Part shown: one piece after another, positions 39,465 to 64,000 of the stretch
Layout of the letters: every line of letters begins with the position of its first letter
Numbering within the stretch: position 1 is the first letter of the stretch
IMG/VR virus record: IMGVR_UViG_3300030116_004255
Span: 1-64,000 of that record
Source of the DNA: a virus
DNA: 64,000 bases
Strand: one strand, 5' to 3'
Position numbers and translations under genes: made by a program
Notes under the pieces: model-generated
Seen by the model: only the letters and a program-made list of their open reading frames with translations
What the model was told of the DNA's origin: nothing
Databases searched by the model: none

Positions 39465-39744
39465 CTTTCCTCTTTCTAGTTAGTCCTCTTTCTTTTCTAA
39501 TTTTCCTACGCTCTCTTTCTGATAGTCCACCCCATATACCAAACTTTTCATTATTCACTATGGAATATTCTAAACAGTGTTCTTGGGCAACACAGGAATT
39601 ACATAATTCTTTTGCTTTTCTTGTGCTTGCACCTCTATCTGGAAAAAATAGATCAGGATCTTCGCCTATGCAGTTGGCATCAACCTGCCACCATAACTCT
39701 TGTAGTCTTAGTAGATTACTTAGAGCTTCCTGTTTATAGTCCAC
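39454..39744 (-). CDS. whiB: WhiB-family Fe-S transcription factor
   Basis: W...ANC...DPDLFFP...AKELCNSC...HCLEY...GIWGGLSERERR. Confidence 0.95.
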   Translation of the reverse strand: MDYKQEALSNLLRLQELWWQVDANCIGEDPDLFFPDRGASTRKAKELCNSCVAQEHCLEYSIVNNEKFGIWGGLSERERRKIRKERGLTRKRKDAK

Positions 39745-50646: not shown

Positions 50647-50655
50647 CTCCCAATA

Positions 50656-50737
50656 TCTATTCTACTCTATTCTATTCTTATCTACTCTATTCTACTCTAT
50701 TCTAGGGCGTGACTGTCACAAATGTCACATGTGACAT
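50656..50737. repeat. TCTAT/TCTAC pentamer array plus GTGAC/GTCAC palindromes
   Basis: tctattctactctattctattcttatctactctattctactctattcta, followed by GTGACTGTCAC and TGTCACATGTGACA. Confidence 0.85.
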
Positions 50738-50856
50738 AAAAACTTTGATTTCCTTATTTTTATTGACTTTTTTAAAAGTCGCAGTCGGAAACAGTTAACA
50801 AAAATTTAATACTGAAATATTTGGTTTTCCGAACAAATGTTCTACTATGGTCAGCT

Positions 50857-51003
50857 ATGGATTATTTAATAGGATTTATATTTGGATATTTTGTTAAAGA
50901 AACTTTTGCATTTCTGAAAAGATTAAGCGAATGGGACTGGCAAAATCGTTTGGTTTATGACCAAGATATATTTATGCCTCTTACTGAGGATGATTTACCC
51001 TAA
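50857..51003 (+). CDS. Small membrane protein
   Basis: MDYLIGFIFGYFV hydrophobic N-terminus. Confidence 0.5.
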   Translation: MDYLIGFIFGYFVKETFAFLKRLSEWDWQNRLVYDQDIFMPLTEDDLP

Positions 51004-52446
51004 AACCTCTTGATCAAACACAAGTGTGTCTTGTATCAAAGATCTAATAACTAATCGACCTGTTAATTCTGCAAAATGTGGTACAACTGCATTTCCGAGA
51101 GCTTTAAGTCTATCAATATCGTTTTCTTGTCTTTCTGCAACTCTTAGTATGTTATTTTCCCATTGACTATCTACACCCCAAGAATTTGTCATTCCAAGTT
51201 CAGCCAACCATCTGGGTAGCCCATAAGTCTGTTCACCCAAGCTGGGTTCAGTCGCATACCAATCAATTCTGGATTCCGTTCCCCAACATCCATCTCCAGC
51301 GTAGAGCCGTGTGATCCACTCGCCACTGAGGGAGCTTTCTTGTTTACTGGCTTGCTGGCCTGACTGGCTCTGGGTGTCGAAAATGTCTCCTTTTCCACCC
51401 ACTCTATCACTTCTATTGTCGTCAGTTCTTTCTCGAACTTTATTTCGTTCAAGTGTGGTTTGATCTTGCTCCAGTCCTCCAGACTCGGATAACTGAATCC
51501 GCTCTGATCGTAGCGATACCAATGATCCACTGTCGTTTTCTTTATCTTGGTCAGCTTTGCTAACTTGGTCGCCCCTATCTGACTTCTTATGTAGTCCACC
51601 CAGTCCTTCTGTGGTGGTAGAAGTGGTCGATTGATCATCTCGTGATCCTGATAATAAACCATTAGGCTCGGATCTTTCTCTATCATATCCATCCAAACTT
51701 GATCGCTCAATGTTCTCTGTATCCTGTGGCCTGACGATCTCCTGGTTTTCCCCTGCATTAGTTTCGTCGCGTGTTTCAAGCTGTCGTCTTTCTGATCCAT
51801 TGTCGTTGGTGTTAACCAAATCTTTGGGTTCTCTCGTAAGTTCCCAGTACCTTTTCTTTTGCTCTTCCTCTCTGGATCTCCACGATACAACGCTCTCTCC
51901 AAAGCGTCCCCTGATCTCGGTTCTAAGTGATCCAAAGTGTTCGGTGTCTCCCACGATTCCAACTCCCACCCATCTTTGTCTTTTGTGTCTTGCTCCAACG
52001 AATTTTGCTGATACAAGTTGCCATTCAAATCGATAGTACCGCATTTTGGCCACACCTTTGAGGACACGGTTAATGGCTTCTCCGTCACTTGCTCTGAGGA
52101 TGTTTGGTACATTTTCCAAGAGGAAGATTGGTGGTCGTAGCTCATCAATAAATCTTTCGACTTCATCCCATAACCATCTTTCATCTTTTACTCCTTTCTG
52201 GTTTCCTGCAACACTTACAGGCTGACATGGAAATCCAGCACTTAATATATCTATTTTAGGTAGATATTTTGTATTTATCTCTTCTACGCTTTTATTTAAA
52301 ACTAAACTATTAGGAAAATTTTGTTGTAAAACCTTTGTACAAAATTCGTCATTGTCTATCTGCCAAGCTACATCTGAAACCAGGCCTGATCTAATAAGGC
52401 CTAACTCTATACCGCCGATACCAGCAAACATACTTCCTAACTTCAT
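50995..52446 (-). CDS. C5-cytosine DNA methyltransferase, alpha polypeptide
   Basis: FAGIGG (I), GFPCQ (IV), ENV (VI), HKRQR (VIII) and LKALGNAVVP (X); motif IX missing. Confidence 0.9.
   Translation of the reverse strand: MKLGSMFAGIGGIELGLIRSGLVSDVAWQIDNDEFCTKVLQQNFPNSLVLNKSVEEINTKYLPKIDILSAGFPCQPVSVAGNQKGVKDERWLWDEVERFIDELRPPIFLLENVPNILRASDGEAINRVLKGVAKMRYYRFEWQLVSAKFVGARHKRQRWVGVGIVGDTEHFGSLRTEIRGRFGESVVSWRSREEEQKKRYWELTREPKDLVNTNDNGSERRQLETRDETNAGENQEIVRPQDTENIERSSLDGYDRERSEPNGLLSGSRDDQSTTSTTTEGLGGLHKKSDRGDQVSKADQDKENDSGSLVSLRSERIQLSESGGLEQDQTTLERNKVRERTDDNRSDRVGGKGDIFDTQSQSGQQASKQESSLSGEWITRLYAGDGCWGTESRIDWYATEPSLGEQTYGLPRWLAELGMTNSWGVDSQWENNILRVAERQENDIDRLKALGNAVVPHFAELTGRLVIRSLIQDTLVFDQEVLG
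51189..52184 (-). CDS. C5 MTase beta polypeptide overprinted in an alternative frame
   Basis: SSSWK...WPKCG, WETP/WLTP/FSTP repeats and terminal RLNPAWVNRLMGYPDGW (motif IX). Confidence 0.8.
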   Translation of the reverse strand: MKDGYGMKSKDLLMSYDHQSSSWKMYQTSSEQVTEKPLTVSSKVWPKCGTIDLNGNLYQQNSLEQDTKDKDGWELESWETPNTLDHLEPRSGDALERALYRGDPERKSKRKGTGNLRENPKIWLTPTTMDQKDDSLKHATKLMQGKTRRSSGHRIQRTLSDQVWMDMIEKDPSLMVYYQDHEMINRPLLPPQKDWVDYIRSQIGATKLAKLTKIKKTTVDHWYRYDQSGFSYPSLEDWSKIKPHLNEIKFEKELTTIEVIEWVEKETFSTPRASQASKPVNKKAPSVASGSHGSTLEMDVGERNPELIGMRLNPAWVNRLMGYPDGWLNLE

Positions 52447-53189
52447 TTAATTCTTTCTTTTGCTATCCTGCAATATTTTTCCATTATTTCTATTCCTATA
52501 AAATTTCTATTAGTGTTTAGACAAGCAACACCAGTAGATCCTGATCCCATTGTAAAATCTAGCACTGTTTGATCTTCAAGCGTATAAGTTTCTATTAAAT
52601 ATTCTAATAAAGCAACTGGTTTTTGTGTTGGGTGATATGACTTCTGATTTTTCTTTTGGTTATCTCTTGGAAAGTAAAGCATGTTGTGTTTTGTTCTGTG
52701 TGTGTAGGTCACATACTTTCTACGGCCATTTTCTAAATTCTTTTTAGCAGTGGAAAAACTCTCGCCACCAGAAATTGTGCGGACTCTAGTTATAGGCTTT
52801 GCTAGTTTTTCCCCCTGCCAATCGTAATCAGGTTGTTCTTTATAAAATATAGATATGTTTTCGTTTTTTCTCATAGGTTGTTTTTTACTAAAGGCCTGAC
52901 CAGTTCCTTTATCTTTTTCCCAGATCCAGTCATATCTATATTCCTCTATGTTAGATAATCTTAAAAAACTACTAAAAGGTTCTAGGCCGAATAAAGCTAT
53001 TGCTGTTCTGTCTTTTCTAATTCTTTTTATCTGACTCCACATTTCCTCTACTGGTACTTGTTTGTCCCAGTCGTATTGAGTAGTTCCGTAAGGAAGATCA
53101 GTTAGTATAAAATCAATAGAGTTGTCGTCAATTAATTTCATAATCTCTAAACAGTTTCCGTTATACAGCTTCAATTCTTTCCTTTGCAA
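52443..53189 (-). CDS. Beta-class N6-adenine/N4-cytosine DNA methyltransferase
   Basis: TDLPYG...HPTQKP...VLDFTMGSGSTG. Confidence 0.92.
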   Translation of the reverse strand: MQRKELKLYNGNCLEIMKLIDDNSIDFILTDLPYGTTQYDWDKQVPVEEMWSQIKRIRKDRTAIALFGLEPFSSFLRLSNIEEYRYDWIWEKDKGTGQAFSKKQPMRKNENISIFYKEQPDYDWQGEKLAKPITRVRTISGGESFSTAKKNLENGRRKYVTYTHRTKHNMLYFPRDNQKKNQKSYHPTQKPVALLEYLIETYTLEDQTVLDFTMGSGSTGVACLNTNRNFIGIEIMEKYCRIAKERIK

Positions 53190-53823
53190 TGTTGTAATAA
53201 TCCTCTACCAGCTCTATTCCTATAAATGCTCTATTTAGTTTTTTACAAACAACTCCAGTAGTCCCTACACCTAAGAAAGGATCAAGTATTAACTGATTTT
53301 CACTTGTAAAGTTTTCTATAAAGTAATGTGCAAGTTGTTCAGGCATAACAGCATTAAAGTCGCCATAGCTTTTTGTTCCTTTTGGTATATCAACAAAGTT
53401 TGTTATGAAATGTGTGTTTGCTTTTACTTTTTTCTTAGAGAAACATAAAATATATTCGACTGAGTTAGTCACATAGTATTGTGCTGAACTAGGTGTAGCA
53501 TTTTTCTTATACCAAATAAAATTTTGTTCTAATAGATCTGCATAATGGCCTATTAATTTAAATACTTGTTTTTTGTTTCTAGCATTTGCTTGTATGTTCC
53601 AGAAAACATAGTGGTCTGTAATTCTTAATAGCTCGTCTATGATTTGTGTACACCAATCAAAATAGTCAGGCCTTTTGTCTTTAAATTGATCGTATTTAGA
53701 TTTTGCTTTAGAGTCTAATTCTTTGTTAAGGCCTATATTGTAAGGTGGACTTGTAAATGTATGATCTACTGTGTTTTCACCGAGTTCTTTTATAATTTCT
53801 AAACAGTCACCGTTATATATCAT
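53161..53823 (-). CDS. Beta-class N4/N6 DNA methyltransferase
   Basis: TSPPYN...ILDPFLGVGTTG. Confidence 0.9.
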   Translation of the reverse strand: MIYNGDCLEIIKELGENTVDHTFTSPPYNIGLNKELDSKAKSKYDQFKDKRPDYFDWCTQIIDELLRITDHYVFWNIQANARNKKQVFKLIGHYADLLEQNFIWYKKNATPSSAQYYVTNSVEYILCFSKKKVKANTHFITNFVDIPKGTKSYGDFNAVMPEQLAHYFIENFTSENQLILDPFLGVGTTGVVCKKLNRAFIGIELVEDYYNIAKERIEAV

Positions 53824-54880
53824 CAACCTGTTCCCAAGTTCTGGTGCGATCACCAAAATGAGAAAATTGACTATCTTTGTAATATTGCACCTGTTTTAAA
53901 TTCAATCTTTCTATTATTGCTTCAGGCCTAAAGTCAAAGCATTGAATAAATTTCTCTATACTTGCACGCCTCTTTTTTTCTGTTCCATTAAAAGCTACAC
54001 TTAGTTCTATTGGGTGTTCCATACCTATTCCATAGGACAACCTAACTAAGGCATCTTCGCACATACCATGTTCTACTAAATTGACAGCTAAGTGTCTAGC
54101 AGCATAAGCGCCAGATCTGTCAACTTTACTTGGATCTTTACCAGAGAAAGCACCACCGCCAACAGGTATTGTAGGTCCGTAGCTATCTACTACTATTTTC
54201 CTACCAGTCACTCCTGTGTCTGCTGCTGGTCCACCTTTTGTAAAAGATCCAGATGGATTTACATGAAGTGTAAAATCTGGACCTATTATATTTTCAACTA
54301 AGCTAACTAACTTACCTTCGTATTCATTTTTTTCTAATTCTGTTTGTACTGAGATAACTACTGTATATCCGCCATTTTCAGTCACTTGTACTTTTGAGTC
54401 CAAGCCATAAAAATAATCATACTTTTGTAGCTCCCATAGATCCATTTGTATTTCTCTAGCTAAATCAAATTCGTGAGGTAAAAGCGTTGATGTTTTATTT
54501 GTTGCAAATCCAATCATAATACCCTGATCTCCTGCACCCTTTTTAGCTACAACTGCATCTCTAATTTCTATACTTTGTGGTGATATATTTTCACTAAGAG
54601 TATATTTATTTAGATCAAATTCTTTATGACTGTTTCTTATGTTTTTTTCTAAAACATCTTTGACTAGATAAGGTATTGTTTGTTTTATTTCGTGATAGGT
54701 AGTTTCTGTCATTTCGCCACCCAACACAACTAATCCTCCACTTTCATTACCAGTAATTAATGTTTCTATTGCTACTTTACAATCTGGATTTTCTACTAAA
54801 GCTCTGTCTAATATTCTGTCAGAAATTTGATCTGCTATTTTATCTGGGTGTCCAGGGGACACAAATTCTGCTGTTTTCAT
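53813..54880 (-). CDS. metK: S-adenosylmethionine synthetase
   Basis: GHPDKIADQISD, GAGDQG, DTGVTGRKI and GGGAFSGKDPSKVDRS. Confidence 0.95.
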   Translation of the reverse strand: MKTAEFVSPGHPDKIADQISDRILDRALVENPDCKVAIETLITGNESGGLVVLGGEMTETTYHEIKQTIPYLVKDVLEKNIRNSHKEFDLNKYTLSENISPQSIEIRDAVVAKKGAGDQGIMIGFATNKTSTLLPHEFDLAREIQMDLWELQKYDYFYGLDSKVQVTENGGYTVVISVQTELEKNEYEGKLVSLVENIIGPDFTLHVNPSGSFTKGGPAADTGVTGRKIVVDSYGPTIPVGGGAFSGKDPSKVDRSGAYAARHLAVNLVEHGMCEDALVRLSYGIGMEHPIELSVAFNGTEKKRRASIEKFIQCFDFRPEAIIERLNLKQVQYYKDSQFSHFGDRTRTWEQVDDI

Positions 54881-55413
54881 TTACTCAACCTTTCCATAAT
54901 GATTTGTTTTGGTAAAAAGTTCCAACAGTAGTAGGAACTAGAAAAAGTAGGGCTACCCATACTCTTACCATCTTTAAAATATTGTATACGCTTATCAAAC
55001 ATAAGTAGTTCTAAATCACGATTTTCAAATAAATACTTAGGTGCGGAGTCATTTAGCCAAGTATTAGACATAAGCAGTGCAAAAGGTTTATTAAAAAATA
55101 AAGCTCTTTCAAATATTTGTCTTTTGTTGGTAAATGGTGGATTACTAACAATAATGTCCCAATGTTCGTCAGGTTCATAGGTATAAAAGTCTTGTCCGTC
55201 AAAAATGTGTGAATTTATAACTTTATTGCGTTCCTGGATCTTTTTTACAAAAAAACTGTGTTCTTGATCAAAAGGACACCAAACTACTGCATTTTCAGGA
55301 ATATATTTTAAAATTGGCTGAACTGCGTATTCTGGGGTATAACACTCGTCATTTTTACCTTTTGAGTATAAAACTTTATTACTTTCTAACCCCCAGCGAT
55401 CAGTTGACTTCAT
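54877..55413 (-). CDS. Small phage N6-adenine DNA methyltransferase
   Basis: DECYTP, VWCPFD and IIVSNPPF. Confidence 0.75.
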   Translation of the reverse strand: MKSTDRWGLESNKVLYSKGKNDECYTPEYAVQPILKYIPENAVVWCPFDQEHSFFVKKIQERNKVINSHIFDGQDFYTYEPDEHWDIIVSNPPFTNKRQIFERALFFNKPFALLMSNTWLNDSAPKYLFENRDLELLMFDKRIQYFKDGKSMGSPTFSSSYYCWNFLPKQIIMERLSK

Positions 55414-55939
55414 TTCCCCAGCTATCCCATCCTTCGGCTGTTTCTCTTGCGAATAATTCTATTCTAGGAAGATCTCCACAAAGTTCAATGATATCGTTCC
55501 TAATTCTGTCAGGTTTCTTGCTGTGTCTTGATCGTGGTTCAATTACTAATTCTTTTACAGCTTTAGAAACTCTGCTTGGTTTTCCTTTTGTAGCTAATAA
55601 ACATAATTCTGGATTACCTCTTGTCCAATAACCTAAACCAGTAAAAAATCCCTCTGACTTAATATTTTTCTTTATCCAGTTAAAAGCTACTGTTTTATAA
55701 GTAAATCCCCAACTATCGATTACTTCAAAGGCCTGTGGTAATGAGTGATTAACTACCCAAAGAAATAAAACACAATTAGTATCTGCAATATCGTTTACTG
55801 GTAATGACTTTATCCAGTTAAGATCTTGTGTTTCGTAATGTTGATTAGGATTTCGTCCCTCGCCTTTTTTACTAAAGTTTTTAAAACTCCACGGTGGATC
55901 TGCATAAATTATGTTGTATTTATTATTTGGGAACTCCAT
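55400..55939 (-). CDS. MT-A70-family adenine methyltransferase
   Basis: IIYADPPW, LFLWV, WGFTYKT, HSKKP and ELFARE..GWDSWGNE. Confidence 0.92.
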   Translation of the reverse strand: MEFPNNKYNIIYADPPWSFKNFSKKGEGRNPNQHYETQDLNWIKSLPVNDIADTNCVLFLWVVNHSLPQAFEVIDSWGFTYKTVAFNWIKKNIKSEGFFTGLGYWTRGNPELCLLATKGKPSRVSKAVKELVIEPRSRHSKKPDRIRNDIIELCGDLPRIELFARETAEGWDSWGNEVN

Positions 55940-56753: not shown

Positions 56754-57441
56754 AATTATTACTATACATTAGATCTTTGATTCTTTGTGCATATCTGCTG
56801 TTATACATAATTCCATTATTATTAGCGCGCATAGCATAATAATTAGGGCAAAAAAATTTTTTTTTAAAAAATATGGGGTATTGGGATAGGAAATGGCTGG
56901 TAATGGGAGGAAATTCATACCCCTGGGTAGGGGGGCTAGGCCTAGGGTAAAGGAGGCGAAACCCCTAAGCCTAACCGTGCATCTAAGTTTATTTTAGTGT
57001 GTCGATCTTGATCTTAGGGATATAAGAAAAGGGACTACCGTGTCCATACAATAGTCCCTATCTCTTCGCAACTGTGAATCGCTTATAGATCATAGTAATA
57101 CCAGATCTTCATATTGTATAGTATCGACTTGTATTTTTATTGCCGATCTGCTGACGCAATCAATTTCCATTATGATCGTGCTGGGGTATATTTTTGCTCG
57201 CATTAATTTTCAATAGCGATTTTTTTAACTACCCCTACCCCTAGCAGTCCATAAGATTCTAAAGCTGAGGACCAGGTCCCCTGTGGACCTCAAATCAAAT
57301 TAGCCGAAGTTGATCCAGAACAGCTACATTTTTGGTCTTTCGTAGATCTATTTTAGCTATTTAGATTTTTCTTAGAAAAGGGGTGCATACCTGTGATTTG
57401 CTGTTTAATATGGTTGTATCGGTTAAAGAAAGGTTAGAAAA

Positions 57442-57870
57442 ATGACTGATAAAAAAGTGGTTATAAAGGCGAAAGCTAAGACCAAAAGTAATAGAAAAGC
57501 AGAACGACCAGAAATTAGAATATTTAATTCTGGTAAGTTCAACAATGATACAAATGGGGACAAAGAGGTTTTTAGAAATCTAAAGTCCTCTAGTATCTGT
57601 TCTCTTAAAATGGAACGCACTAGCGAAACTACTTGTAAAGTGTTCGTTGGGTTCGTTGGTTATACTACCGTTGAGGGCGACAAGAAAGACGATACTTTGT
57701 ATGTCGTTCACGCTGTCCCTCTAGCTGAGTGGCGTAAACTTCGTTCAAGTATCCTTAAAGGTAATAGCGTTGGTCGTGCTTACGGTAAGTTCAATAGTCC
57801 TATTGAAAGTATTAACGACAACCACGAAATTGAAAAGACACCACGATACGAAACAGAAAGACTAAAGTAA
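57442..57870 (+). CDS. KTSC-like domain early protein
   Basis: SSSI...Y...VP...SVGRAY pattern; AGAAAGGTTAG RBS. Confidence 0.55.
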   Translation: MTDKKVVIKAKAKTKSNRKAERPEIRIFNSGKFNNDTNGDKEVFRNLKSSSICSLKMERTSETTCKVFVGFVGYTTVEGDKKDDTLYVVHAVPLAEWRKLRSSILKGNSVGRAYGKFNSPIESINDNHEIEKTPRYETERLK

Positions 57871-58010
57871 TGGAGTTTTATTGTTTCGTTTGTGATAAGG
57901 AAGTGGGCGACAATCAAGCACAATATTGCGACTGGGATAATATCCCAGTTGCATTTTGTCCTGACTGTAATGTTTCACTAAATAGAATAGTTATGAAAGT
58001 AGGTAAATAA
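57870..58010 (+). CDS. 46-aa zinc-finger protein
   Basis: Hand translation MEFYCFVCDK...AFCPDCN; TAATG coupling. Confidence 0.6.
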   Translation: MEFYCFVCDKEVGDNQAQYCDWDNIPVAFCPDCNVSLNRIVMKVGK

Positions 58011-58157
58011 ATGTTATCAATACAGGGACTAATATTAGTTTCAATGTTTTTCTTTGCAGTAGGCTTTTTCACTGCTGAGGGAATTTGGATACTAAAAGAT
58101 TATAAATTAGATAGAGAAGTCAAAAAGACTTATAAAGATATGGGGGTGCATAGTTGA
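58011..58157 (+). CDS. 48-aa single-pass membrane protein
   Basis: MLSIQGLILVSMFFFAVGFFTAEGIWIL. Confidence 0.55.
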   Translation: MLSIQGLILVSMFFFAVGFFTAEGIWILKDYKLDREVKKTYKDMGVHS

Positions 58158-58242
58158 GGTTCTTATTTAAAATATTAGAACACACACTCAACCCACCACC
58201 ACCGAAAAGAAAGTATAAAAAGAAAAAGCAATAGGACAGAAA

Positions 58243-58276
58243 GTCCCCTCTAGGAAACTAGGGGGGATTTTTTTTA
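58243..58276 (+). terminator. Intrinsic terminator
   Basis: GTCCCCTCTAG-gaaa-CTAGGGGGGAT plus T-tract. Confidence 0.8.
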
Positions 58277-58312
58277 TGCTTTGATATGCGTGTCGCTGAT
58301 CAGATTTCGCTA

Positions 58313-58340
58313 GATTAAGGGAAATTTTCAATCTCGTTTT
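58313..58340 (+). repeat. Intergenic repeat copy 1
   Basis: gATTAA gggaa ATTTTCAATCTCGTTTT. Confidence 0.9.
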
Positions 58341-58395
58341 AGAAATCTCGGAGCATGATCTGATTCAGCTAAATTTATAAATCCACCTTTAATAC

Positions 58396-58424
58396 TTGAC
58401 GATCTTGCGTCGCTAGATCACAAT
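58396..58424 (+). promoter_or_regulatory. Sigma70-type early promoter
   Basis: TTGACG-17-CACAAT, then AGAAAGGTTAG RBS. Confidence 0.65.
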
Positions 58425-58445
58425 AAGAGTAGAAAGGTTAGGTAT

Positions 58446-58628
58446 ATGATTAGAAAAAAGTGGTTATCTTTTGTTAGTCGTTTAAGTGATATTATTATCG
58501 CTTATCTACTTGAAAGAGAAATACCAATTTATTTTGACAGTTCTTTTATTTGCACAGAGGAAATATTAGATAGCTGTTATGTTGAACAAAAACACGACTG
58601 CAAGTATTGGGGGTATGACAATGACTAA
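58446..58628 (+). CDS. Hypothetical early protein
   Basis: Strong RBS. Confidence 0.6.
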   Translation: MIRKKWLSFVSRLSDIIIAYLLEREIPIYFDSSFICTEEILDSCYVEQKHDCKYWGYDND

Positions 58629-59193
58629 AAGCAGAGGCGACAGAGTAGAAATCTGCAAGAAGTGTAGGTCTATCAGTTCTCTTTACAAAGGGTTCTGGTT
58701 AGGTCTTAACTTTGGAACTCCTGGCGGTCCAGTAGAGGAAGTTGACCTATATTGTTCGCAATGTAGTTCTTTAGAACCTGAAACAGTGGAAGTCTACGCA
58801 AGACAATGCACTTTTTGTTCTAAAGGTTTTAGTCAGGGTTATCTAAGTGGGGACGAATACTTTTGTAATCAAGAGTGTGAAGTCAACCAATGTATTAAAA
58901 GACAAAGTTGCAAGTGCTTTGAAGTTCTTGTAAAAGAAATTGATACAACTAAGTTAGCGACTTCTGATCCTCAATGGTTAAAAATGACTATTAAGGGTGC
59001 GTTAGCTAAAGACTTGGGACAGATTGAACTAACTTCTAAACAATGGTATGAATTTATTGAAACAGAAATCGGTTCAGACTATTTTGAAAAGTTAGACAAT
59101 GAGTGGTGGTATTGGTCAGAGTGGGACTTGTCAGATTGTATTGGCGATATGGTTTATACAAGTAAAGGTAAGGAATACTTTTTAGAGGACTAA
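58621..59193 (+). CDS. Cys-rich multi-zinc-finger early protein
   Basis: Several CxxC pairs. Confidence 0.65.
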   Translation: MTKSRGDRVEICKKCRSISSLYKGFWLGLNFGTPGGPVEEVDLYCSQCSSLEPETVEVYARQCTFCSKGFSQGYLSGDEYFCNQECEVNQCIKRQSCKCFEVLVKEIDTTKLATSDPQWLKMTIKGALAKDLGQIELTSKQWYEFIETEIGSDYFEKLDNEWWYWSEWDLSDCIGDMVYTSKGKEYFLED

Positions 59194-59210
59194 ACCAGCT
59201 TTAGCAGTAG

Positions 59211-59242
59211 AAAAAGAGGGACCTGGTGTCCCTCTTTTTTTT
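59211..59242. terminator. Bidirectional intrinsic terminator
   Basis: AAAAAGAGGGAC-ctggt-GTCCCTCTTTTTTT. Confidence 0.85.
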
Positions 59243-59359
59243 AGCGTAAGGAGATCTCCTGGTCCTCTGATCAGAAATCGCTAGTTAGCGTTTTCCGGTC
59301 TTGGCTTTTATAGATCTACATAAGAGTTGGATATTCTCTTTCTTTTTTTTTTCTCATTT

Positions 59360-59387
59360 CATTAATTCACATTTTCAATCTCGTTTT
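59360..59387 (+). repeat. Intergenic repeat copy 2
   Basis: CATTAA ttcac ATTTTCAATCTCGTTTT. Confidence 0.9.
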
Positions 59388-59537
59388 CTGTGGGGTTGGG
59401 TTAAGGTCTGATTTTTTTAAACGCTTAAATCGGTTTTAAATGGTCTGTTTATTTTAGAAAATCTTAATTTTTAGTGATTTTACGAAAAAACGAGTATATA
59501 ATTGAATCTAGTATCGGTTAAAAAAAGGAAAACGATT

Positions 59538-59894
59538 ATGAGTAAAGAAATACAGGAATTGTTTGACGCTGACGACTTAGGACTAGACATAACTGGTTTT
59601 AAGTTTATGGGTAAAGTCCCAGTTGATAGCGGTTCTGTTTTAATTACTGACGGTTGTTATACAAAATATATTGAGAGTGAAAATGAAACTTTTGATAAAT
59701 GGTATGACAAATATTGTAAGACATTAGACAACAACGGTGGTCGAGGTGGAAATATGGACGACAAACTTATGTTTGCAAGTCCTACTTCTCACGGCGACGG
59801 ACATTTTCCAGTTTATAGAGTTATGGACGAGGAAAATGGGTTTAGAGGTCTGTTCGTTGATTTCTGTGATTATGGGGACGCGTTCAATGTCTAA
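59538..59894 (+). CDS. DUF4241-like protein
   Basis: GKVPVDSGSVLITDGCY...HGDGHFPVY. Confidence 0.6.
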   Translation: MSKEIQELFDADDLGLDITGFKFMGKVPVDSGSVLITDGCYTKYIESENETFDKWYDKYCKTLDNNGGRGGNMDDKLMFASPTSHGDGHFPVYRVMDEENGFRGLFVDFCDYGDAFNV

Positions 59895-60117
59895 AAACGA
59901 TTTAACCCCAGAACAAATTAAAAACATAAAGGAATTTGAGGCGAAAATTCCAGACGAAATTAAGCGACTAACAGAAAAGGTTGGGGACTTAACAGAACTT
60001 ATCAATGAGTTAAGGTGGGACAATTACAACCCAGAATACATTGAAAAAAAACAACAAGAGAGATTCGAGTTAAACCAAGAAATTGAAAAACTAAAATCTC
60101 AATATAGGTCGTCTTAG
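59887..60117 (+). CDS. Coiled-coil hypothetical protein
   Basis: Likely start MSKND overlapping the upstream gene. Confidence 0.6.
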   Translation: MSKNDLTPEQIKNIKEFEAKIPDEIKRLTEKVGDLTELINELRWDNYNPEYIEKKQQERFELNQEIEKLKSQYRSS

Positions 60118-60145
60118 TTTCTAACCACTACTAAGACACTTACGG

Positions 60146-60174
60146 AAAAGGGACTGACGCCTCAGTCCCTTTTT
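60146..60174. terminator. Intrinsic terminator
   Basis: AAAAGGGACTGA-cgcc-TCAGTCCCTTTTT. Confidence 0.85.
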
Positions 60175-60239
60175 CTTTTGTCCAAAATTTAAAGCTGTTG
60201 ATCAACTTTGAGAATTTATTATTGATTTTATTTTTATTA

Positions 60240-60315
60240 CATTAATGCTCATTTTCAATCTCGTTTTAAGGGGATCAATTTCTTTTTTAATTCATTATTG
60301 GGCATTCTCAATCCC
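60240..60315 (+). repeat. Intergenic repeat copy 3 (60240-60267) plus degenerate copy (60293-60315)
   Basis: CATTAA tgctc ATTTTCAATCTCGTTTT; CATTAT tgggc ATTCTCAATCcc. Confidence 0.88.
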
Positions 60316-60349
60316 AAAAAAAAACAACCCCAGAATTTCTGGGGCTGTC
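60316..60349 (-). terminator. Terminator of the ArdC-like gene
   Basis: CCCCAG-aattt-CTGGGG stem; the A-tract on its left is a U-tract on the minus strand. Confidence 0.75.
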
Positions 60350-60369
60350 TTTTGTTTATCGGTTATTGG

Positions 60370-61230
60370 TTAGGTTAAAGCGTCTATTATTTTATTAGCT
60401 GTATTGTAAATATTGCTTAATGAGTTCTTGAAGGTTTTTTTATCGTCCTCCTGCCAGCCTGCAATATATTTAAGGCTGTAATCGTCTGTTTTAAATCCAA
60501 AGTAATTTAAAACTATGTAAGCAACAGACTCAGCCTCCACTTCTGCAATTTCTCGGCATTCTAAATAATTAAGTTCTTTGTGCATCAACTTGTGGGCAAC
60601 TTCGTGGGCTAGCGTCTTTGTTTTTTGTAATTGACTCATATCCTTTTGAATTTGAATTAATTTCTGGGTAAAGTTTGTGAAGCCGTTGCTTGCGTCATAG
60701 TAATTGACTACACGAAGGTGCCACTGATCAGCCTCAATTAATTTCTCTTGTATAGCAGTGAATAATTCGGCACTGTCCTCCCCTTTTAACAGTTCTGGCA
60801 TATAAGGGTTTACAATCTCTATGCCGTCATCGTTTAATGGTTCAGTATCTTTTAAATCAAATACATAATAAGCCCTATAATAAATTCTTTTGTCCTCTTC
60901 CTTTTGATTCTTATCTTCGATTATTATCGGTCTAAATTGTGGAATCTTTAAAGGGGCTAGGCGTTCCTTACATTTACATTCTTTATTTTTAAAAGCTCTG
61001 CAAGTGATACAAGCAACAACGATTCTATTTTTTTCTATCCATTGTTTATAAGTTAAAACAAGCTGGGCTTCTTTGTTATAGATAAAAATTAAAAATGTAT
61101 TGTTAAATGATCGGCGTCGGTCATTGGACTTTACAAAATTTAAATAATTTAAATATTGCTGTTCGTCAATAACAATAGAATTTAATTTAGTTTCTAATTC
61201 GTCAGTAATTTTTTTAATAACTGGATTCAT
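60370..61230 (-). CDS. ArdC-like ssDNA-binding/antirestriction protein with zincin (HExxH) domain
   Basis: SFNNTFLI...TYKQW...YVFD..DT; TLAHEVAH...EVEAESVAY...YSLKYIAGW. Confidence 0.85.
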   Translation of the reverse strand: MNPVIKKITDELETKLNSIVIDEQQYLNYLNFVKSNDRRRSFNNTFLIFIYNKEAQLVLTYKQWIEKNRIVVACITCRAFKNKECKCKERLAPLKIPQFRPIIIEDKNQKEEDKRIYYRAYYVFDLKDTEPLNDDGIEIVNPYMPELLKGEDSAELFTAIQEKLIEADQWHLRVVNYYDASNGFTNFTQKLIQIQKDMSQLQKTKTLAHEVAHKLMHKELNYLECREIAEVEAESVAYIVLNYFGFKTDDYSLKYIAGWQEDDKKTFKNSLSNIYNTANKIIDALT

Positions 61231-61405
61231 TTTTTAACCTTCTTTTATTACGATACTTATTTAATTATATAAAGGTTTTTTAAATATATCTAATAAAATA
61301 AAATTTTTTCTGTTCTCTGGATCTATTTCTGAATTAGATCTGTAAAAGGTAAAGCTGACCGTGAAATTTTACTTTGATTGTTGTGTTTCTTTTTTTTTCT
61401 CATTG

Positions 61406-61433
61406 CATTAGTTCAGATTCTCAATCTCGTTTT
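61406..61433 (+). repeat. Intergenic repeat copy 4
   Basis: CATTAG ttcag ATTCTCAATCTCGTTTT. Confidence 0.9.
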
Positions 61434-61526
61434 TAAAAGGTCTTAAAAATTAATTTGTTTTAATACTTGTATTATCTCTGAAGTTGATCAATAATTATAT
61501 AAGTATCGTATAAATTAGGAGGACTT

Positions 61527-61862
61527 ATGAAGGCTTTTAGTTTAGAAAACTTAAAAGACTACATTGAGAATCACGAAAAAACTATGTCTAAAGATTATGA
61601 CATAAGTGCTGACGACATTGATAGAGTTATGAAAAATAATGTTGAAATGGATGTCAGTTGGGAAGTTGGATTCTTAAAAGGAATGGAGCATATAGTCAAG
61701 ACCTTTGACATAGAAAGTTATGAAAAAGGTAGAGAGGGCTTACAAGAGGCTTATTCTTTTGCGTTAGAGTTGTTAAGCGAAAGAGAGTTAGAGATACACA
61801 ACAAATGGTCTGATGCTGATCCAGAAGAGAGAAAGCATATTGAAGACACTTGGGAAGTGTAA
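61527..61862 (+). CDS. Hypothetical early protein
   Basis: AGGAGG RBS. Confidence 0.7.
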   Translation: MKAFSLENLKDYIENHEKTMSKDYDISADDIDRVMKNNVEMDVSWEVGFLKGMEHIVKTFDIESYEKGREGLQEAYSFALELLSERELEIHNKWSDADPEERKHIEDTWEV

Positions 61863-61863
61863 G

Positions 61864-62184
61864 ATGCCTACATTCTATATAACTGAAACAGATAAAACCA
61901 CTTACGAAATTGAAGCGTCCAGTGAAGAGGACGCTTTGAAAAAGTTTGAAGACAGTTATGATATGAAACCTAGCAACTTTGAGAGAATTGACTTTTCTAT
62001 TAAGGAAGTTGGGGCTAAAGATAACTGGGTTTATGTTTGCACAGATTGTAAAGGGACTGAAGTATATACAGATATATGGCAGAACATTAACGATGAATCA
62101 GAGTTAAGTGAGGGTGCAGGCGAAAGATATTGTCAAGATTGTGCGTCATCGTGCAAGACAGAATATATATTAGAGGAGGAATAG
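61864..62184 (+). CDS. Zinc-ribbon early protein
   Basis: YEIEASSEEDA; CTDC...CQDC. Confidence 0.65.
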   Translation: MPTFYITETDKTTYEIEASSEEDALKKFEDSYDMKPSNFERIDFSIKEVGAKDNWVYVCTDCKGTEVYTDIWQNINDESELSEGAGERYCQDCASSCKTEYILEEE

Positions 62185-62729
62185 TGAGTAGAGAGAGAAT
62201 TAGGTTAGAAATAGACCTAGATTTTAGTAGGTTATTCTCTGGTTCATTTCAGTCAGCATTTGACGAAGTGGACTTTGAAAATAGCAGTATAAAAGAAATT
62301 GGGGATTCTATATCTAGTGAAATAATATCAACAGTGCAGGACGGTCTTAAAGACTGCAATATAAAAGTTAGGTGGTTTGATACAGTATATTTTTGGAATG
62401 AGTTTAAAAATGAAGATCACTTGCAAGACTGCATTAAGGATATGCTGGAGGAATACCTAGCAGAAGTTGGGTGTAAGGAATTAGACGAAAACGAAGTCGG
62501 TATGAACAGTCGCAGGTTTGATTTGTTTGCTGAGTCATTGGGCGTAGACTTTGACAGAGATAACGCTTATGAACCGTCTAAGGATACGAGATTCATCGAA
62601 GGTCTAATGGCTTTGAATAAATCTTGTGAGTATCCAGTAATTAAAGATAAATTTAATGAAATCTTTAAATATATGGAGTCAATGGGGTTTGATATATTTG
62701 ACCAATACCAAGACTGGTTAAACGAATAA
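62184..62729 (+). CDS. Acidic hypothetical protein
   Basis: GTG start after GAGGAGG. Confidence 0.65.
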   Translation: MSRERIRLEIDLDFSRLFSGSFQSAFDEVDFENSSIKEIGDSISSEIISTVQDGLKDCNIKVRWFDTVYFWNEFKNEDHLQDCIKDMLEEYLAEVGCKELDENEVGMNSRRFDLFAESLGVDFDRDNAYEPSKDTRFIEGLMALNKSCEYPVIKDKFNEIFKYMESMGFDIFDQYQDWLNE

Positions 62730-62750
62730 CCAACACCACTTAATTAATTA

Positions 62751-62783
62751 AAGACTGGGGATCACAATCCCCAGTTTTTTTTT
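62751..62783 (+). terminator. Intrinsic terminator
   Basis: ACTGGGGAT-caca-ATCCCCAGT plus T-tract. Confidence 0.85.
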
Positions 62784-62851
62784 GGATTGAAAACGAGTCA
62801 TAATGGTTGGGATTGGGATTGTAAATCTAATATAATGGATATTTTTTATTT

Positions 62852-62960
62852 CATTAATGCAGATTCTCAATCTCGGTTTTGGATTGGATTAGGAATATAA
62901 TGGTAATGGCGTAAGTTCTTTCTTTCTGTATTTCATTATTGCTGATTTTCAATCTCGTTT
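62852..62960 (+). repeat. Intergenic repeat copies 5 (62852-62880) and 6 (62934-62960)
   Basis: CATTAA tgcag ATTCTCAATCTCGGTTTT; CATTAT tgctg ATTTTCAATCTCGTTT. Confidence 0.9.
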
Positions 62961-63069
62961 GATCAGTGCTACCGATCCAGCTACGCTACCAAAATAGATC
63001 TAAACAGCAAGACGATCAGTTCCCAGCTTTAAGACGATTTTTCCTTTCTACTGCTATTTTTAATTTGTG

Positions 63070-63097
63070 TTGCATACCGATAATCTGCAACTATAAT
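63070..63097 (+). promoter_or_regulatory. Sigma70-type early promoter
   Basis: TTGCAT-16-TATAAT, then AGAAAGGTTAG RBS. Confidence 0.65.
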
Positions 63098-63117
63098 TAA
63101 ATTTAGAAAGGTTAGAT

Positions 63118-63405
63118 ATGAACGATATTCAAAACAAAAACAAAGTTGAAGTCATTAACCCTAGAACTAACGAAGTAATGATTCTAGAAAATGACTTGCT
63201 TGATTTGGTTGAGGGAATTAATTATATCTGTGATTTTTACAGAAATAAAAAAGGCTTTGACCAAAATAAAGTTCTGGATACTTTTATCAAAGTGAGAGAG
63301 ATCGAGAGGCTAAGAGGCTTCAACACCTCTCAATCGTTTTCTATTGATAGTTTCAGTAGAGAACAAGTCTTTGAGTTAGTGACCAGAGAAATGGACAATG
63401 GGTAA
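63118..63405 (+). CDS. Hypothetical early protein
   Basis: RBS and promoter present. Confidence 0.7.
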   Translation: MNDIQNKNKVEVINPRTNEVMILENDLLDLVEGINYICDFYRNKKGFDQNKVLDTFIKVREIERLRGFNTSQSFSIDSFSREQVFELVTREMDNG

Positions 63406-63548
63406 TGAGTGACCTTTACAGAACTTATACTGTTGAGAAAACTATTACCCAGACCTGTGAGATATGTTTATCCAGCGATTACGAAATGGCTTTGGACAAA
63501 ACTGACACAGGTTTTAAACACGAGGAGTGTAATTATGGGGACGATTGA
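63405..63548 (+). CDS. 47-aa zinc-finger-like protein
   Basis: Hand translation MSDLYRTY...TCEIC...HEEC; TAATG coupling. Confidence 0.55.
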   Translation: MSDLYRTYTVEKTITQTCEICLSSDYEMALDKTDTGFKHEECNYGDD

Positions 63549-63732
63549 AGTAGACATAGAGGTCTATGATCAAATCAGTAAGGTTAGGGAATCAGGTGTC
63601 ACTAATATGCTGGACAAGAAAAGAGTTAGCGAATTAGTAAATGATAGAACTAAACAATGGATAACCGATAACCCTGAAATGTATTTATCAGGGATTATGT
63701 TAGGTTTCACTGTTATCACGGATACTACCTAA
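63535..63732 (+). CDS. DUF5049-like protein
   Basis: QISKVRESGVTNMLD motif; GAGGAG RBS before the ATG at 63535. Confidence 0.6.
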   Translation: MGTIEVDIEVYDQISKVRESGVTNMLDKKRVSELVNDRTKQWITDNPEMYLSGIMLGFTVITDTT

Positions 63733-63753
63733 CCTAGTATACGATACGAAAAG

Positions 63754-63785
63754 AAAACCCCAGACTTAAAAATCTGGGGTTTTTC
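63754..63785. terminator. Bidirectional intrinsic terminator
   Basis: AAAACCCCAGA-cttaaaaa-TCTGGGGTTTTT. Confidence 0.85.
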
Positions 63786-63875
63786 TTATTTACTGCTATC
63801 CGTTTGGGATAACCGTGTTGATTAGATCTATTTATCTTGACATTGCATAACCTCCAGTTTGTTTATTTTTTATTG

Positions 63876-63903
63876 CATTAATAGTGATTCTCAATCTCGT
63901 TTT
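63876..63903 (+). repeat. Intergenic repeat copy 7
   Basis: CATTAA tagtg ATTCTCAATCTCGTTTT. Confidence 0.9.
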
Positions 63904-64000
63904 GGATCTTGATCACTTACTACAAATAAGACTGTATGAGTTTTTTGATTTTCTTTGAATTAATTTTATTTTCTTTATATAATGGGTTTTAGTATTGGAC

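What the first reader, a model, noticed from the sequence alone, without database searches (positions are those of the whole stretch)
58313..63903. Polar 28-bp repeat punctuates an array of ~1-kb self-contained early gene cassettes
Seen: consensus (T-tract)-CATTAD-N5-ATTYTCAATCTCGTTTT at 58313, 59360, 60240, 61406, 62852, 62934 and 63876, plus a degenerate copy at 60293. There is at least one copy in every spacer, all on the same strand with an invariant 5-nt variable gap, and I saw none in the 56-kb late arm. Each interval holds a unit of promoter, RBS, 1-3 small genes and terminator. The copies at 60240/60293 lie between two convergent terminators, and the repeat keeps its orientation on both sides of the inverted ArdC-like cassette. 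It is therefore not simply a promoter or operator for the next gene. Inference: a DNA-level signal, such as recombination sites that shuffle accessory (anti-defence/host-takeover) cassettes, polar loading sites for DNA entry/replication/packaging, or stoperator-like sites for a phage protein. No recombinase is in the window.
Basis: partly seen in the sequence, partly recalled or inferred. Interest (0 to 1): 0.85.

Follow-up and report, generated by a model that had tools for sequence, protein, structure and literature searches.

The report
Polar boundary repeat between phage cassettes
A conserved, one-directional DNA element of about 45 bases sits at every joint between the small early-gene units of a widespread marine actinobacterial phage group, is most likely the docking site of a phage DNA-binding protein, and is the place where gene units are swapped between phages.

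Summary
The repeat is real. Seven strong copies lie on the + strand only, at 58.3-63.9 kb. Degenerate copies continue beyond the window to a cluster at 66.9-67.2 kb.

The unit is T-tract, CATTA, N6, ATTYTCAATCYC, RTTTT. It is kept in 7 related IMG/VR phage records and 96 marine metagenome contigs: 470 copies on one strand, 19 on the other.

Cassette genes between copies are reshuffled among relatives. Homology breakpoints pile up at the two edges of the element.

Dispersed copies are not sigma-70-type promoters. The last copy of a tandem cluster (22-38 bp spacing) lies 3-4 bases before the -10 of a conserved small terminated transcription unit in 5 of 6 genomes.

No tyrosine or serine recombinase is encoded.

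Best reading: operator- or iteron-like sites of an unidentified phage protein, which also serve as short-homology exchange points. The nearest analogues are PeSLs and stoperators, but it belongs to neither family. What binds it and what it does are untested.

This scan's earlier notes describe similar polar boundary motifs, with other sequences, in freshwater actinobacterial phages.

The parts
58313..58340 (+). Copy 1: core ATTTTCAATCTCGTTTT at 58324-58340. The left half is degenerate (ATTAAG, no CATTA).
59339..59387 (+). Copy 2 with its T-tract: CATTAA at 59360, core at 59371-59387.
60240..60267 (+). Copy 3: CATTAA at 60240, core at 60251-60267. It lies between convergent terminators.
60293..60315 (+). 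Copy 3b, of the CCC subtype: CATTAT at 60293, core ATTCTCAATCCC at 60304-60315, 53 bp after copy 3. It abuts the two-way terminator at 60328-60344.
61385..61433 (+). Copy 4 with its T-tract: CATTAG at 61406, core at 61417-61433.
62852..62879 (+). Copy 5a: core ATTCTCAATCTCGGTTT (1 mismatch).
62934..62961 (+). Copy 5b, 82 bp after 5a: core ATTTTCAATCTCGTTTG (1 mismatch).
63876..63903 (+). Copy 6: CATTAA at 63876, core at 63887-63903.
58396..59243 (+). Cassette 1: promoter-like TTGACG-17-CACAAT (58396-58424), ORFs 58446-58628 and 58579-59193, then a GC hairpin with a T run near 59213-59243.
   Evidence: The hairpin near 59213 was read from the sequence and was not listed by the scan.
59502..60185 (+). 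Cassette 2: ORFs 59502-59894 and 59737-60117, terminator 60144-60175. This cassette has next to no cover in the contigs of run X16.
60328..61292 (-). Inverted cassette: a 286-aa protein (60370-61230) with a Peptidase_M78 match (4.6e-08) and a weak ArdC-N match (0.0038). Its promoter-like site is at 61292-61264 and its terminator at 60344-60328.
61527..62789 (+). Cassette 4: three ORFs (61527-61862, 61813-62184, 62130-62729) and terminator 62750-62779.
63073..63784 (+). Cassette 5: TTGCAT-N16-TATAAT read by eye near 63073-63100, ORFs 63118-63405, 63405-63548 and 63409-63732, terminator 63753-63784.
63955..64000 (+). Start of cassette 6: promoter-like TTGAAT-17-TATAAT at 63955-63983. Its genes run beyond the window to 65581.

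Best explanation
The element is a docking site of about 45 bp for a sequence-specific DNA-binding protein encoded by this phage group.

Anatomy. The site is bipartite and asymmetric: an A/T tract, then CATTA, a 6-base gap and ATTYTCAATCYC, with the conserved blocks about one helical turn apart. It can be stacked head to tail every 22 bp.

Where it sits. A tandem cluster lies at the right end of the early array. The last copy of that cluster fills the -35/spacer region of a conserved promoter that drives a short CU-rich, terminated transcript. There the protein would act as an operator-bound regulator. Single or paired copies sit at every cassette joint, downstream of the previous terminator and at variable distance upstream of the next promoter. 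There the bound protein would mark, insulate or silence the accessory cassettes.

Second role. The element is the only sequence shared by otherwise unrelated cassettes, and all copies point the same way. It is therefore also the short homology at which cassettes are exchanged between co-infecting relatives.

Shown: the anatomy, the conservation, the promoter overlap, the shuffling and the breakpoints.

Inferred: that a protein binds, which protein it is (first candidate the 76-aa HTH_17/Xis-type protein at 68814-69044 on the minus strand; then the 265-aa replication initiator or the ParB-like protein), and what binding does.
For: 1. Conservation far above the surroundings. In 75 sites of six genomes the CATTA positions hold C 60, A 72, T 74, T 73 and A 69 of 75. 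These positions were not used to pick the sites. The core is near invariant. Between genomes whose neighbouring proteins are 26-87% identical, the arrays share little DNA similarity apart from a few genes and islands of about 41-60 bp from about -30 to +18 around the motif, at 82-93% identity.

2. Spread and polarity. There are 12-14 copies on one strand in each of five relatives, and 12 in a sixth. In 96 metagenome contigs (509 kb), 85 have at least 2 copies, with 470 copies on the majority strand against 19 on the other. CATTA stands at -11 in 343 of 446 sites.

3. Tandem arrays. Five to six units stand at 22-bp spacing in 3300030331_005446, and at 24-38 bp in three others. Short spacings are quantised at 22, 38, 54, 62, 78 and 95 bp.

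4. Operator position. In 5 of 6 genomes the last cluster copy ends 3-4 bases before TATAGT, TATGAT or TATAAT, often preceded by TG. About 75-85 bases follow, holding CUCUCUC and a terminator hairpin. The same junction recurs in many metagenome contigs.

5. Not a host chromosomal motif. The strict pattern gives only 9 single hits in the collection of 185,579 species genomes.

6. Candidate binders are kept. The HTH_17 protein is 70-86% identical within the group, and its TVSSW.QR..P helix is kept even in a distant relative. The N-terminal domain of the initiator is near invariant.

7. Exchange at the element.
- Neighbour conservation is 0 of 72 comparisons across motif-bearing junctions, against 12 of 138 across motif-less ones.
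- The share of site pairs with similar downstream flanks, given similar upstream flanks, is 265 of 432 at boundaries against 154 of 185 at mid-cassette controls.
- Of 78 right ends of homology, 23 fall at 0 to +29. Of 55 left starts, 23 fall at -30 to -11.
- In 10 + 7 distinct one-sided pairs the switch lies between about -25 and +16.
Against: - No binding was shown and no binder identified.
- The site is not palindromic, and no homologue of a known asymmetric-site repressor was sought specifically.
- Dispersed copies lie upstream of the cassettes' own promoter-like sites, so a bound protein could stop only read-through, not those promoters.
- In the window's own genome the last cluster copy (67152) does not overlap the small unit's promoter, which lies about 95 bp further on.
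- Promoter predictions are consensus matches only and are not enriched over shuffles: 19 found against 26.3 expected.
- Counts of site pairs and HSPs are not independent events. Only 17 distinct recombinant pairs were resolved. The synteny result rests on 3 adjacencies, all between two close relatives.
- The same data fit origin iterons.
Confidence: 0.45

Rival explanations
1. Replication iterons. The tandem cluster, with its GATC-dense block at 66.85-67.25 kb, is the phage origin and is bound by the 265-aa initiator. The dispersed copies are outlying iterons that titrate or pair with the origin, or that act as polar fork barriers.
For: - Head-to-tail units of 22 bp at 22-38 bp spacing.
- 31 GATC in 700 bp next to the cluster in the window's genome.
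- A replication initiator (phrog_9474, 6.1e-34), a helicase-loader-like protein and SSB are encoded, but no DNA polymerase was found among the proteins scanned.
- No other non-coding tandem array was found in or near the initiator gene, and the only other short tandem repeats in the genome are at 13.2-13.6 kb (coding) and at 50661.
- The initiator's N-terminal domain is near invariant, like the motif.
- That iteron origins with clustered GATC exist (P1 oriR) is recalled, not tested.
Against: - The initiator gene lies about 9 kb from the cluster in this genome.
- The GATC block is peculiar to this genome: 3-11 GATC in the same region of the relatives.
- In the distant relative 3300030380_004565 the initiator gene holds its own three 21-bp repeats of another sequence, while the CATTA...TCAAT element sits elsewhere. 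The two are therefore probably read by different proteins.
- GC skew follows the coding strand and says nothing.
- One copy at every cassette joint over 10 kb is not a known property of iterons.
Confidence: 0.2
2. Factor-dependent promoter. The element is the upstream part of a second promoter class (middle-type), read by host RNA polymerase together with a phage factor such as WhiB. Each cassette would then have tandem promoters.
For: - All copies point along the main direction of early transcription.
- Copies lie 70-190 bp before start codons.
- The cluster-end copy does form the -35/spacer part of a promoter with an extended -10.
- The phage encodes WhiB at 39502-39690 on the minus strand.
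- No phage RNA polymerase was found.
Against: - Dispersed copies in the named records have GTTTT plus variable sequence where the -10 should be.
- Copies occur where only a terminator and a minus-strand gene follow (60251, 60304) and at the 3' ends of minus-strand groups in relatives.
- Tandem arrays at 22 bp are not promoter-like.
- Divergent promoter regions inside cassettes lack the element (3300030116_006028 at 13406-13512).
Confidence: 0.12
3. Dedicated site-specific recombination sites, integron- or dif-like, cut and joined by a host Xer-type enzyme or by an unrecognised phage recombinase.
For: - Cassette repertoire is large: 309 boundaries give 126 downstream and 123 upstream flank clusters.
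- Breakpoints lie at the element.
- The format is bipartite with a fixed 6-base gap.
- A 305-aa protein next to the cluster has no known family. One homologue is labelled 'Recombinase' by a source, and there is a weak Sak single-strand-annealing lead at 0.88.
Against: - No PF00589 or PF00239 match in the genome.
- The two halves are not inverted repeats of each other.
- Breakpoints are spread between the T-tract and the core rather than at one position.
- Tandem 22-bp arrays and the promoter overlap are not features of attC or dif.
- The 305-aa family is common in phages that lack the motif: 525 loci, with motif arrays only in the known relatives.
Confidence: 0.08
4. Packaging or DNA-entry signal: polar sites read by the terminase small subunit or by the ejection machinery.
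For: - Strict polarity.
- A/T tracts in phase, which suggests bent DNA.
- The GATC run recalls the P1 pac site (recalled).
Against: - Ten or more such sites over 10 kb, one per cassette joint, are not expected for pac or cos.
- No read-start pile-ups could be seen, because only contigs were available (table 6: none).
- Contig ends of three assemblies fall in an inverted repeat, not at the motif array.
Confidence: 0.05

Closest known systems
PeSLs (promoter-early stem-loops) of T4-type phages. Arbiol et al. 2010, PMC2839356: abstract and the section on PeSL characteristics read. Comeau et al. 2014, PMC4122927: abstract read.
   Same: Short conserved intergenic motifs concentrated in hypervariable regions of small early genes of unknown function. 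They separate self-contained units. Exchange between copies explains insertions, deletions and replacements between relatives.
   Different: A PeSL is itself a sigma-70-like promoter plus a terminator stem-loop. Here the conserved island holds neither: promoter-like sites and terminators are separate and not conserved. This element also has a bipartite asymmetric core with a fixed gap, strict single orientation, and tandem 22-bp arrays. Mini-circles were not testable.
Operator and stoperator sites of Cluster A mycobacteriophages (L5 and TipsytheTRex repressor). McGinnis et al. 2022, PMC9283540: abstract and Introduction read.
   Same: Actinobacterial phages. An asymmetric site occurs both in a promoter (operator) and in many short intergenic spaces, with orientation tied to the direction of transcription. 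The paper shows that a monomer with two DNA-binding domains can read such a site.
   Different: - Stoperators are 13-mers spread over the whole genome on both arms. This element is 22-28 bp plus an A/T tract and is confined to the 10-kb early array.
- It does not flip beside inverted genes.
- It lies upstream of the cassettes' own promoters.
- It forms tandem arrays.
- No repressor homologue was identified, and the phage shows no integrase.
Iterons of Rep-type plasmid and phage origins (P1 oriR/incA, lambda ori). Recalled, no paper read.
   Same: Direct repeats of about 20 bp, asymmetric, stackable at about two helical turns, with extra copies outside the origin. GATC clusters stand beside the iterons in P1.
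   Different: One copy at each of about ten gene-cassette joints. The cluster is not in or beside the initiator gene. A distant relative keeps separate repeats inside its initiator gene.
KorB operator sites on plasmid RK2. PMC11790492: only the search listing and the start of the abstract were seen.
   Same: A dozen sites for one regulator spread through intergenic regions, acting on promoters at variable and long distance. A ParB-like protein is encoded here.
   Different: KorB sites are palindromes (recalled) and this element is not. The phage ParB-like protein has no recognised DNA-binding domain and no Pfam match.

Membership tests
PeSL (T4-type mobile regulatory cassette) | The repeated motif itself contains a sigma-70-like early promoter. 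| tested here: not met
   Among 87 sites, TANNNT occurs 8 times at +15 and 3 times at +16, at cluster-end copies and a few others. The 37 CTC-G dispersed copies of the named records lack it, with one exception. The best promoter-like sites lie 51-260 bp downstream.
PeSL (T4-type mobile regulatory cassette) | The motif contains a stem-loop that terminates upstream transcription. | tested here: not met
   The conserved island (-30 to +18) has no inverted repeat. Terminator hairpins lie 35-117 bp upstream and differ in sequence.
PeSL (T4-type mobile regulatory cassette) | Concentrated in hypervariable regions of small genes of unknown function, with exchange between copies reshuffling genes. | tested here: met
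   Pfam and PHROG searches are nearly blank for the cassettes. Shuffling and breakpoints at the element are shown.
Stoperator system (Cluster A mycobacteriophages) | An asymmetric site is present at a promoter and in many short intergenic spaces. | tested here: met
   The cluster-end copy overlaps a conserved promoter in 5 of 6 genomes. The other copies are intergenic.
Stoperator system (Cluster A mycobacteriophages) | Site orientation follows the direction of transcription across the whole genome. | tested here: not met
   Copies are confined to 58.3-67.2 kb. None lies in the minus-strand late arm. Orientation stays + beside minus-strand cassettes.
Stoperator system (Cluster A mycobacteriophages) | A monomeric two-domain immunity repressor binds the site. 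| not testable with these tools
No homologue search with an L5-type repressor was made.
Rep-type origin iterons | Tandem direct repeats of about 17-22 bp in helical phase. | tested here: met
   22-bp arrays in 3300030331_005446 and 24-38 bp spacing in others. In the window's own genome only one 22-bp pair (67010/67032) is found; its other cluster copies stand 120-135 bp apart.
Rep-type origin iterons | Located in or beside the initiator gene and bound by the initiator. | tested here: inconclusive
   The initiator is at 76562-77359, 9 kb from the cluster. It is 2 kb away in 3300030116_005269, where the module is inverted. Binding could not be tested.
Integron attC or Xer dif-type sites | A tyrosine recombinase partner is encoded with the array. 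| tested here: not met
   PF00589 gives 0 matches, and PF00239 also gives 0. A host enzyme cannot be excluded.
Integron attC or Xer dif-type sites | Two inverted binding arms around a short central region. | tested here: not met
   CATTA and ATTYTCAATCYC are not reverse complements of each other. Only a weak palindrome, CATTAATG, exists inside the left half.

The most novel reading that the evidence does not exclude
The element is a polar protein-DNA barrier that both insulates each accessory cassette and stalls a fork or polymerase just after the T-tract. This provokes template switching between co-infecting genomes. The result would be an integrase-free, integron-like cassette exchange system, with more than 120 distinct cassette flanks already visible, operating in an abundant group of marine actinobacterial phages. 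The same protein would control a conserved CU-rich small RNA.
Probability: 0.15. Interest if true: 0.85.

Novelty: new variant of a known kind. Interest (0 to 1): 0.62.

Why it matters
Early accessory regions hold most of the unknown genes that phages use against host defences, and how these genes move between phages is poorly understood outside the T4 group. This is a clean, sequence-defined boundary element. It is kept almost letter for letter in many ocean samples, and exchange junctions map to within about 40 bases of it. That makes three things directly testable: which protein reads it, whether it blocks or directs polymerases in one direction, and whether it drives cassette exchange. Together with this scan's similar notes on freshwater actinobacterial phages, it suggests a general way in which actinobacterial phages organise and trade early genes.

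Tried and rejected
- Minus-strand sigma-70 promoter (TTGAGA-18-AAAAAT, listed). Rejected because the '-10' is only the complement of the T-tract, which is replaced by an A-tract in 3300034418_006582 and 3300017727_000091.
- Known phage records. A blastn search of 57000-64000 against 50,697 phage records found no match.
- The 305-aa protein beside the cluster as the motif reader. It belongs to a family with 525 IMG/VR loci, mostly in phages without the motif. It has no Pfam family in 36 members and no PDB relative. Only a weak atlas lead to Sak was found.
- Co-variation of motif and binder. Searches with alignments of the initiator and of the HTH protein gave only one distant relative, too few for a test.
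- Contig 3300001355_000108 looked like a member but has only chance hits.
- 'Joints' in laid contigs. All have short sides (20-32 letters) and map from one motif copy to another. They are cross-matches of the repeat, not proof of deletions or circles. Of the 24 loose ends listed, 5 fall in motif footprints that cover 4.3% of the stretch, but 99 more were not shown.
- Run shares of 0.41-0.48 did not mean missing cassettes. The contigs of X9 and X13 cover nearly the whole stretch at 90-99% identity. Only X16 has next to no cover over L262 3270-4203.
- Rfam found no family in L262 or L279.
- GC skew was uninformative.
- Literature. No paper holding the 12-mers is about phages (13 papers, 10 listed; judged from titles and abstract starts they hold the 12-mers in unrelated contexts, and none was opened). 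A search for marine actinophage intergenic repeats returned 2 papers, and neither title concerns such a repeat.
- Supplementary files were not consulted.

Full report
WHAT IS THERE

The window is bases 1-64000 of an 81,955-bp IMG/VR virus record, classed as linear and estimated 100% complete.

The 17-mer ATTYTCAATCTCGTTTT has 11 matches at up to 3 mismatches, against 1.15 expected. None of 100 shuffles reaches 11. The seven matches with 0-1 mismatch all lie on + between 58324 and 63903.

In the whole record the 16-mer gives 7 forward and 0 reverse matches.

The array goes on beyond the window. Weaker copies stand at 65671, 66875, 67010, 67032 and 67152. The octamer TCAATCYC occurs 12 times on +, all between 58328 and 67156, and once on -.

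The last four copies lie in a block with 31 GATC in 700 bp.

GENOME CONTEXT

- Bases 1-57000 are a minus-strand late arm. It holds an HK97-type capsid protein, a prohead protease, the portal, the large terminase, a tape-measure-like protein and a tail fibre. It also holds five methyltransferases and a SAM synthetase.
- 57.4-66.8 kb is the + strand array of small genes. These are nearly blank in Pfam and PHROGs.
- 67.4-69.3 kb holds three minus-strand genes. One is an HTH_17 protein that is really about 76 aa long.
- 69.5-81.9 kb is a + strand module with a replication initiator (phrog_9474, 6.1e-34), a helicase-loader-like protein, SSB, a ParB-like protein and three more methyltransferases.
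- WhiB is encoded at 39502-39690 on the minus strand, which points to an actinobacterial host.
- No tyrosine or serine recombinase family matches anywhere in the genome.
- No RNA or DNA polymerase was found among the proteins scanned. Four late-arm ORFs lost and many small ORFs were never scanned.

THE ELEMENT IN RELATIVES

Exact-pattern scans of IMG/VR found the same motif, many times and on one strand, in these records:
- 3300030116_005269 (85 kb)
- 3300030116_006028
- 3300030116_008157
- 3300030331_005446
- 3300034418_006582 (78 kb)
- 3300017727_000091

Each carries 12-14 copies within about 10 kb.

A logo of 75 sites from six genomes gives the unit:
- T-tract at -23 to -17. It is an A-tract in two genomes.
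- CATTA at -11 to -7, with counts of C 60, A 72, T 74, T 73 and A 69 of 75. These positions were not used for selection.
- A weakly kept gap, wTGCnc.
- ATTYTCAATCYC at 0 to 11.
- R-TTTT at 12 to 16.

A strict pattern found 96 marine metagenome contigs (509 kb). Of these, 85 have at least two copies. There are 470 copies on the majority strand against 19 on the other, and CATTA is in place in 343 of 446 sites.

The same pattern gave only nine single hits in the collection of 185,579 species genomes.

Contigs of public runs from 11 studies, all labelled marine, seawater or estuary metagenomes, hold the stretch or part of it.

WHAT IT IS NOT

It is not the sigma-70-type promoter of the next gene.
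- Among 87 sites, TANNNT occurs 8 times at +15 and 3 times at +16, at cluster-end copies and a few others. The 37 dispersed CTC-G copies of the named records read GTTTT plus variable sequence there, with one exception.
- The best promoter-like site lies 51-260 bp downstream, at no fixed distance.
- Copies occur where only a terminator and a minus-strand gene follow (60251, 60304).
- Divergent promoter regions inside cassettes of relatives have no copy.

It holds no hairpin.

Its halves are not inverted arms.

A minus-strand promoter reading fails because its '-10' is only the complement of the T-tract.

THE TERMINAL CLUSTER

Every array ends on the right in a tandem cluster: five to six units at 22 bp in 3300030331_005446, and 24-38 bp spacing in others. 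In the 22-bp arrays the CATTA of one unit overlaps the end of the previous core, so 22 bp is the true unit length.

In 5 of 6 genomes the last copy ends 3-4 bases before TATAGT, TATGAT or TATAAT, often preceded by TG. The gap of the motif supplies a -35-like hexamer in some genomes.

About 75-85 bases follow, holding CUCUCUC and a terminator hairpin. Only that hairpin and the CU run are conserved. No Rfam family matches. The same junction recurs in many metagenome contigs.

In the window's own genome the promoter (TTTACG-17-TATAAT, 67236-67264) lies about 95 bp after the last copy, and the terminator is at 67318-67342.

This overlap with a conserved core promoter is the strongest hint that the element is a protein-binding operator.

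CASSETTE EXCHANGE

Gene families of the array are few, only 26-57% identical, and placed in different orders in different genomes. Three families are inverted between genomes while the motif keeps its orientation.

Between genomes, the arrays share little DNA similarity apart from a few genes and islands of about 41-60 bp around the motif.

Synteny test. In seven records, the neighbour of a shared gene is conserved in 0 of 72 comparisons across motif-bearing junctions, and in 12 of 138 across motif-less junctions. The Fisher test gives 0.005 one-sided. The 12 are only 3 adjacencies, all between two close relatives.

Linkage test. With the metagenome contigs added there are 309 boundaries and 188 mid-cassette control points. 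Pairs of sites with similar upstream flanks also have similar downstream flanks in 265 of 432 cases at boundaries, against 154 of 185 at controls. In the other direction the figures are 265 of 409 against 154 of 214.

Breakpoint positions. Among 224 in-register alignments between 175 single-copy boundaries, 121 run through the whole 800 bp. Of the 78 right ends, 23 fall at 0 to +29. Of the 55 left starts, 23 fall at -30 to -11.

Distinct events. In 10 distinct pairs alike only upstream, identity holds to -17 in all and carries through the gap in most. In 7 pairs alike only downstream, identity begins between about -25 and -11. Crossovers therefore lie inside the element, at the T-tract or the core, and not at one fixed base.

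Repertoire. The 309 boundaries have 126 distinct downstream and 123 distinct upstream flanks.

These counts are of pairs, not of independent events.

A DISTANT RELATIVE

Record 3300030380_004565 has an initiator 37% identical and an HTH protein 49% identical. It has no dispersed array. It carries only three diverged copies (CATTA-N7-GAAAATCAATGC) at a convergent gene boundary, plus one inverted copy at the contig start. Three 21-bp repeats of another sequence lie inside its initiator gene.

This suggests two things. The cluster is the older location of the element. And the element is probably not the initiator's own iteron.

INTERPRETATION

Best reading, about 0.45: docking sites of a phage-encoded sequence-specific protein. 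It would act as an operator at the small unit's promoter and as a boundary, insulating or silencing mark at the cassette joints. The sites double as the short homology for cassette exchange.

The first candidate reader is the small HTH_17 protein. Proteins of this fold are known, from recall, to bind head-to-tail direct repeats as monomers. It is 70-86% identical within the group.

Rivals:
- Origin iterons, 0.2
- Factor-dependent promoter, 0.12
- Site-specific recombination site, 0.08
- Packaging or entry signal, 0.05

COMPARISON WITH KNOWN SYSTEMS

The nearest analogues are PeSLs of T4-type phages and the operator/stoperator sites of Cluster A mycobacteriophages.

It works like a PeSL as a boundary and exchange point, but fails both defining features, the promoter and the stem-loop inside the motif.

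It resembles stoperators in asymmetry and in the pairing of an operator with intergenic copies. It differs in length, in distribution, in not following gene orientation, and in lying upstream of the cassette promoters.

Earlier notes of this scan describe polar boundary motifs of other sequences in freshwater actinobacterial phages (unchecked). The kind of thing is therefore recurrent, and this is a marine version with a defined cluster-promoter link.

LIMITS

- No binding, transcript or replication data were available.
- Read data were contigs only.
- Promoter and terminator calls are consensus scans.

Noticed in passing
genome 66850-67250 (beyond the window; L262 10850-11250): A GATC-dense block: 31 GATC in 700 bp, in runs such as GATCCWGATC, interleaved with the last four motif copies. 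Relatives have only 3-11 GATC in the same region. Over 87 sites in seven records GATC is enriched in the spacers, with a peak at +20 to +29 after the motif (26 in that bin against about 12-16 in neighbouring bins).
   Followed up: partly
genome 67236-67351 (L262 11236-11351): A conserved small transcription unit after the motif cluster: a promoter, a CU-rich run (UUCUCUCUC, like an anti-Shine-Dalgarno sequence) and a terminator, about 75-85 bases long. It is present in six genomes and many metagenome contigs. No Rfam match.
   Followed up: partly
genome 67291-67369 and 81877-81955: A perfect 79-bp inverted repeat, cut off by the record's end, flanks the 14.5-kb replication module. The module is inverted in 3300030116_005269. 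Contig 3300009593_002372 is exactly such a module bounded by 205-bp inverted repeats that carry a motif copy. The distant relative has a 70-bp inverted repeat at its contig start. Logan contigs of runs X9 and X13 also break at this repeat. This points to a possible invertible segment or an unresolved assembly.
   Followed up: partly
window 50995-55939 and genome 79104-81607: A heavy load of DNA methylation genes: one C5 methylase, two N6_N4 methylases, one MT-A70 methylase and a SAM synthetase in the window, and three more N6_N4 methylases behind a ParB-like gene near the record's end.
   Followed up: no
window 50650-50740: Runs of CTATT/CTACT units (a 20-bp repeat at 50661) followed by TGTCAC/GTGACA palindromes, which look like an operator, in a stretch with only small ORFs.
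   Followed up: no
genome 67894-68811 (minus strand): A 305-aa protein of a large phage family: 201 hits in the protein search and 525 IMG/VR loci. It has no Pfam family or PDB relative. Invariant residues include W119, M190, A191, Q192, R194 and A195 (part of the consensus SMAQTRA). One homologue is labelled 'Recombinase' by a source, and there is a weak atlas lead to Sak annealing proteins.
   Followed up: partly
L279 12548-12669 and 16150-16450 (3300030380_004565): The distant relative has three 21-bp tandem repeats and a TAGAG-type repeat inside its initiator gene, probably its origin. It also has a GC-rich, structured-looking non-coding stretch after its motif cluster. No Rfam match.
   Followed up: no
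window 59270-60203 (L262 3270-4203): Cassette 2 has next to no cover in the contigs of estuary run X16, while its neighbours are covered. This may be a natural variant lacking or replacing this cassette.
   Followed up: no
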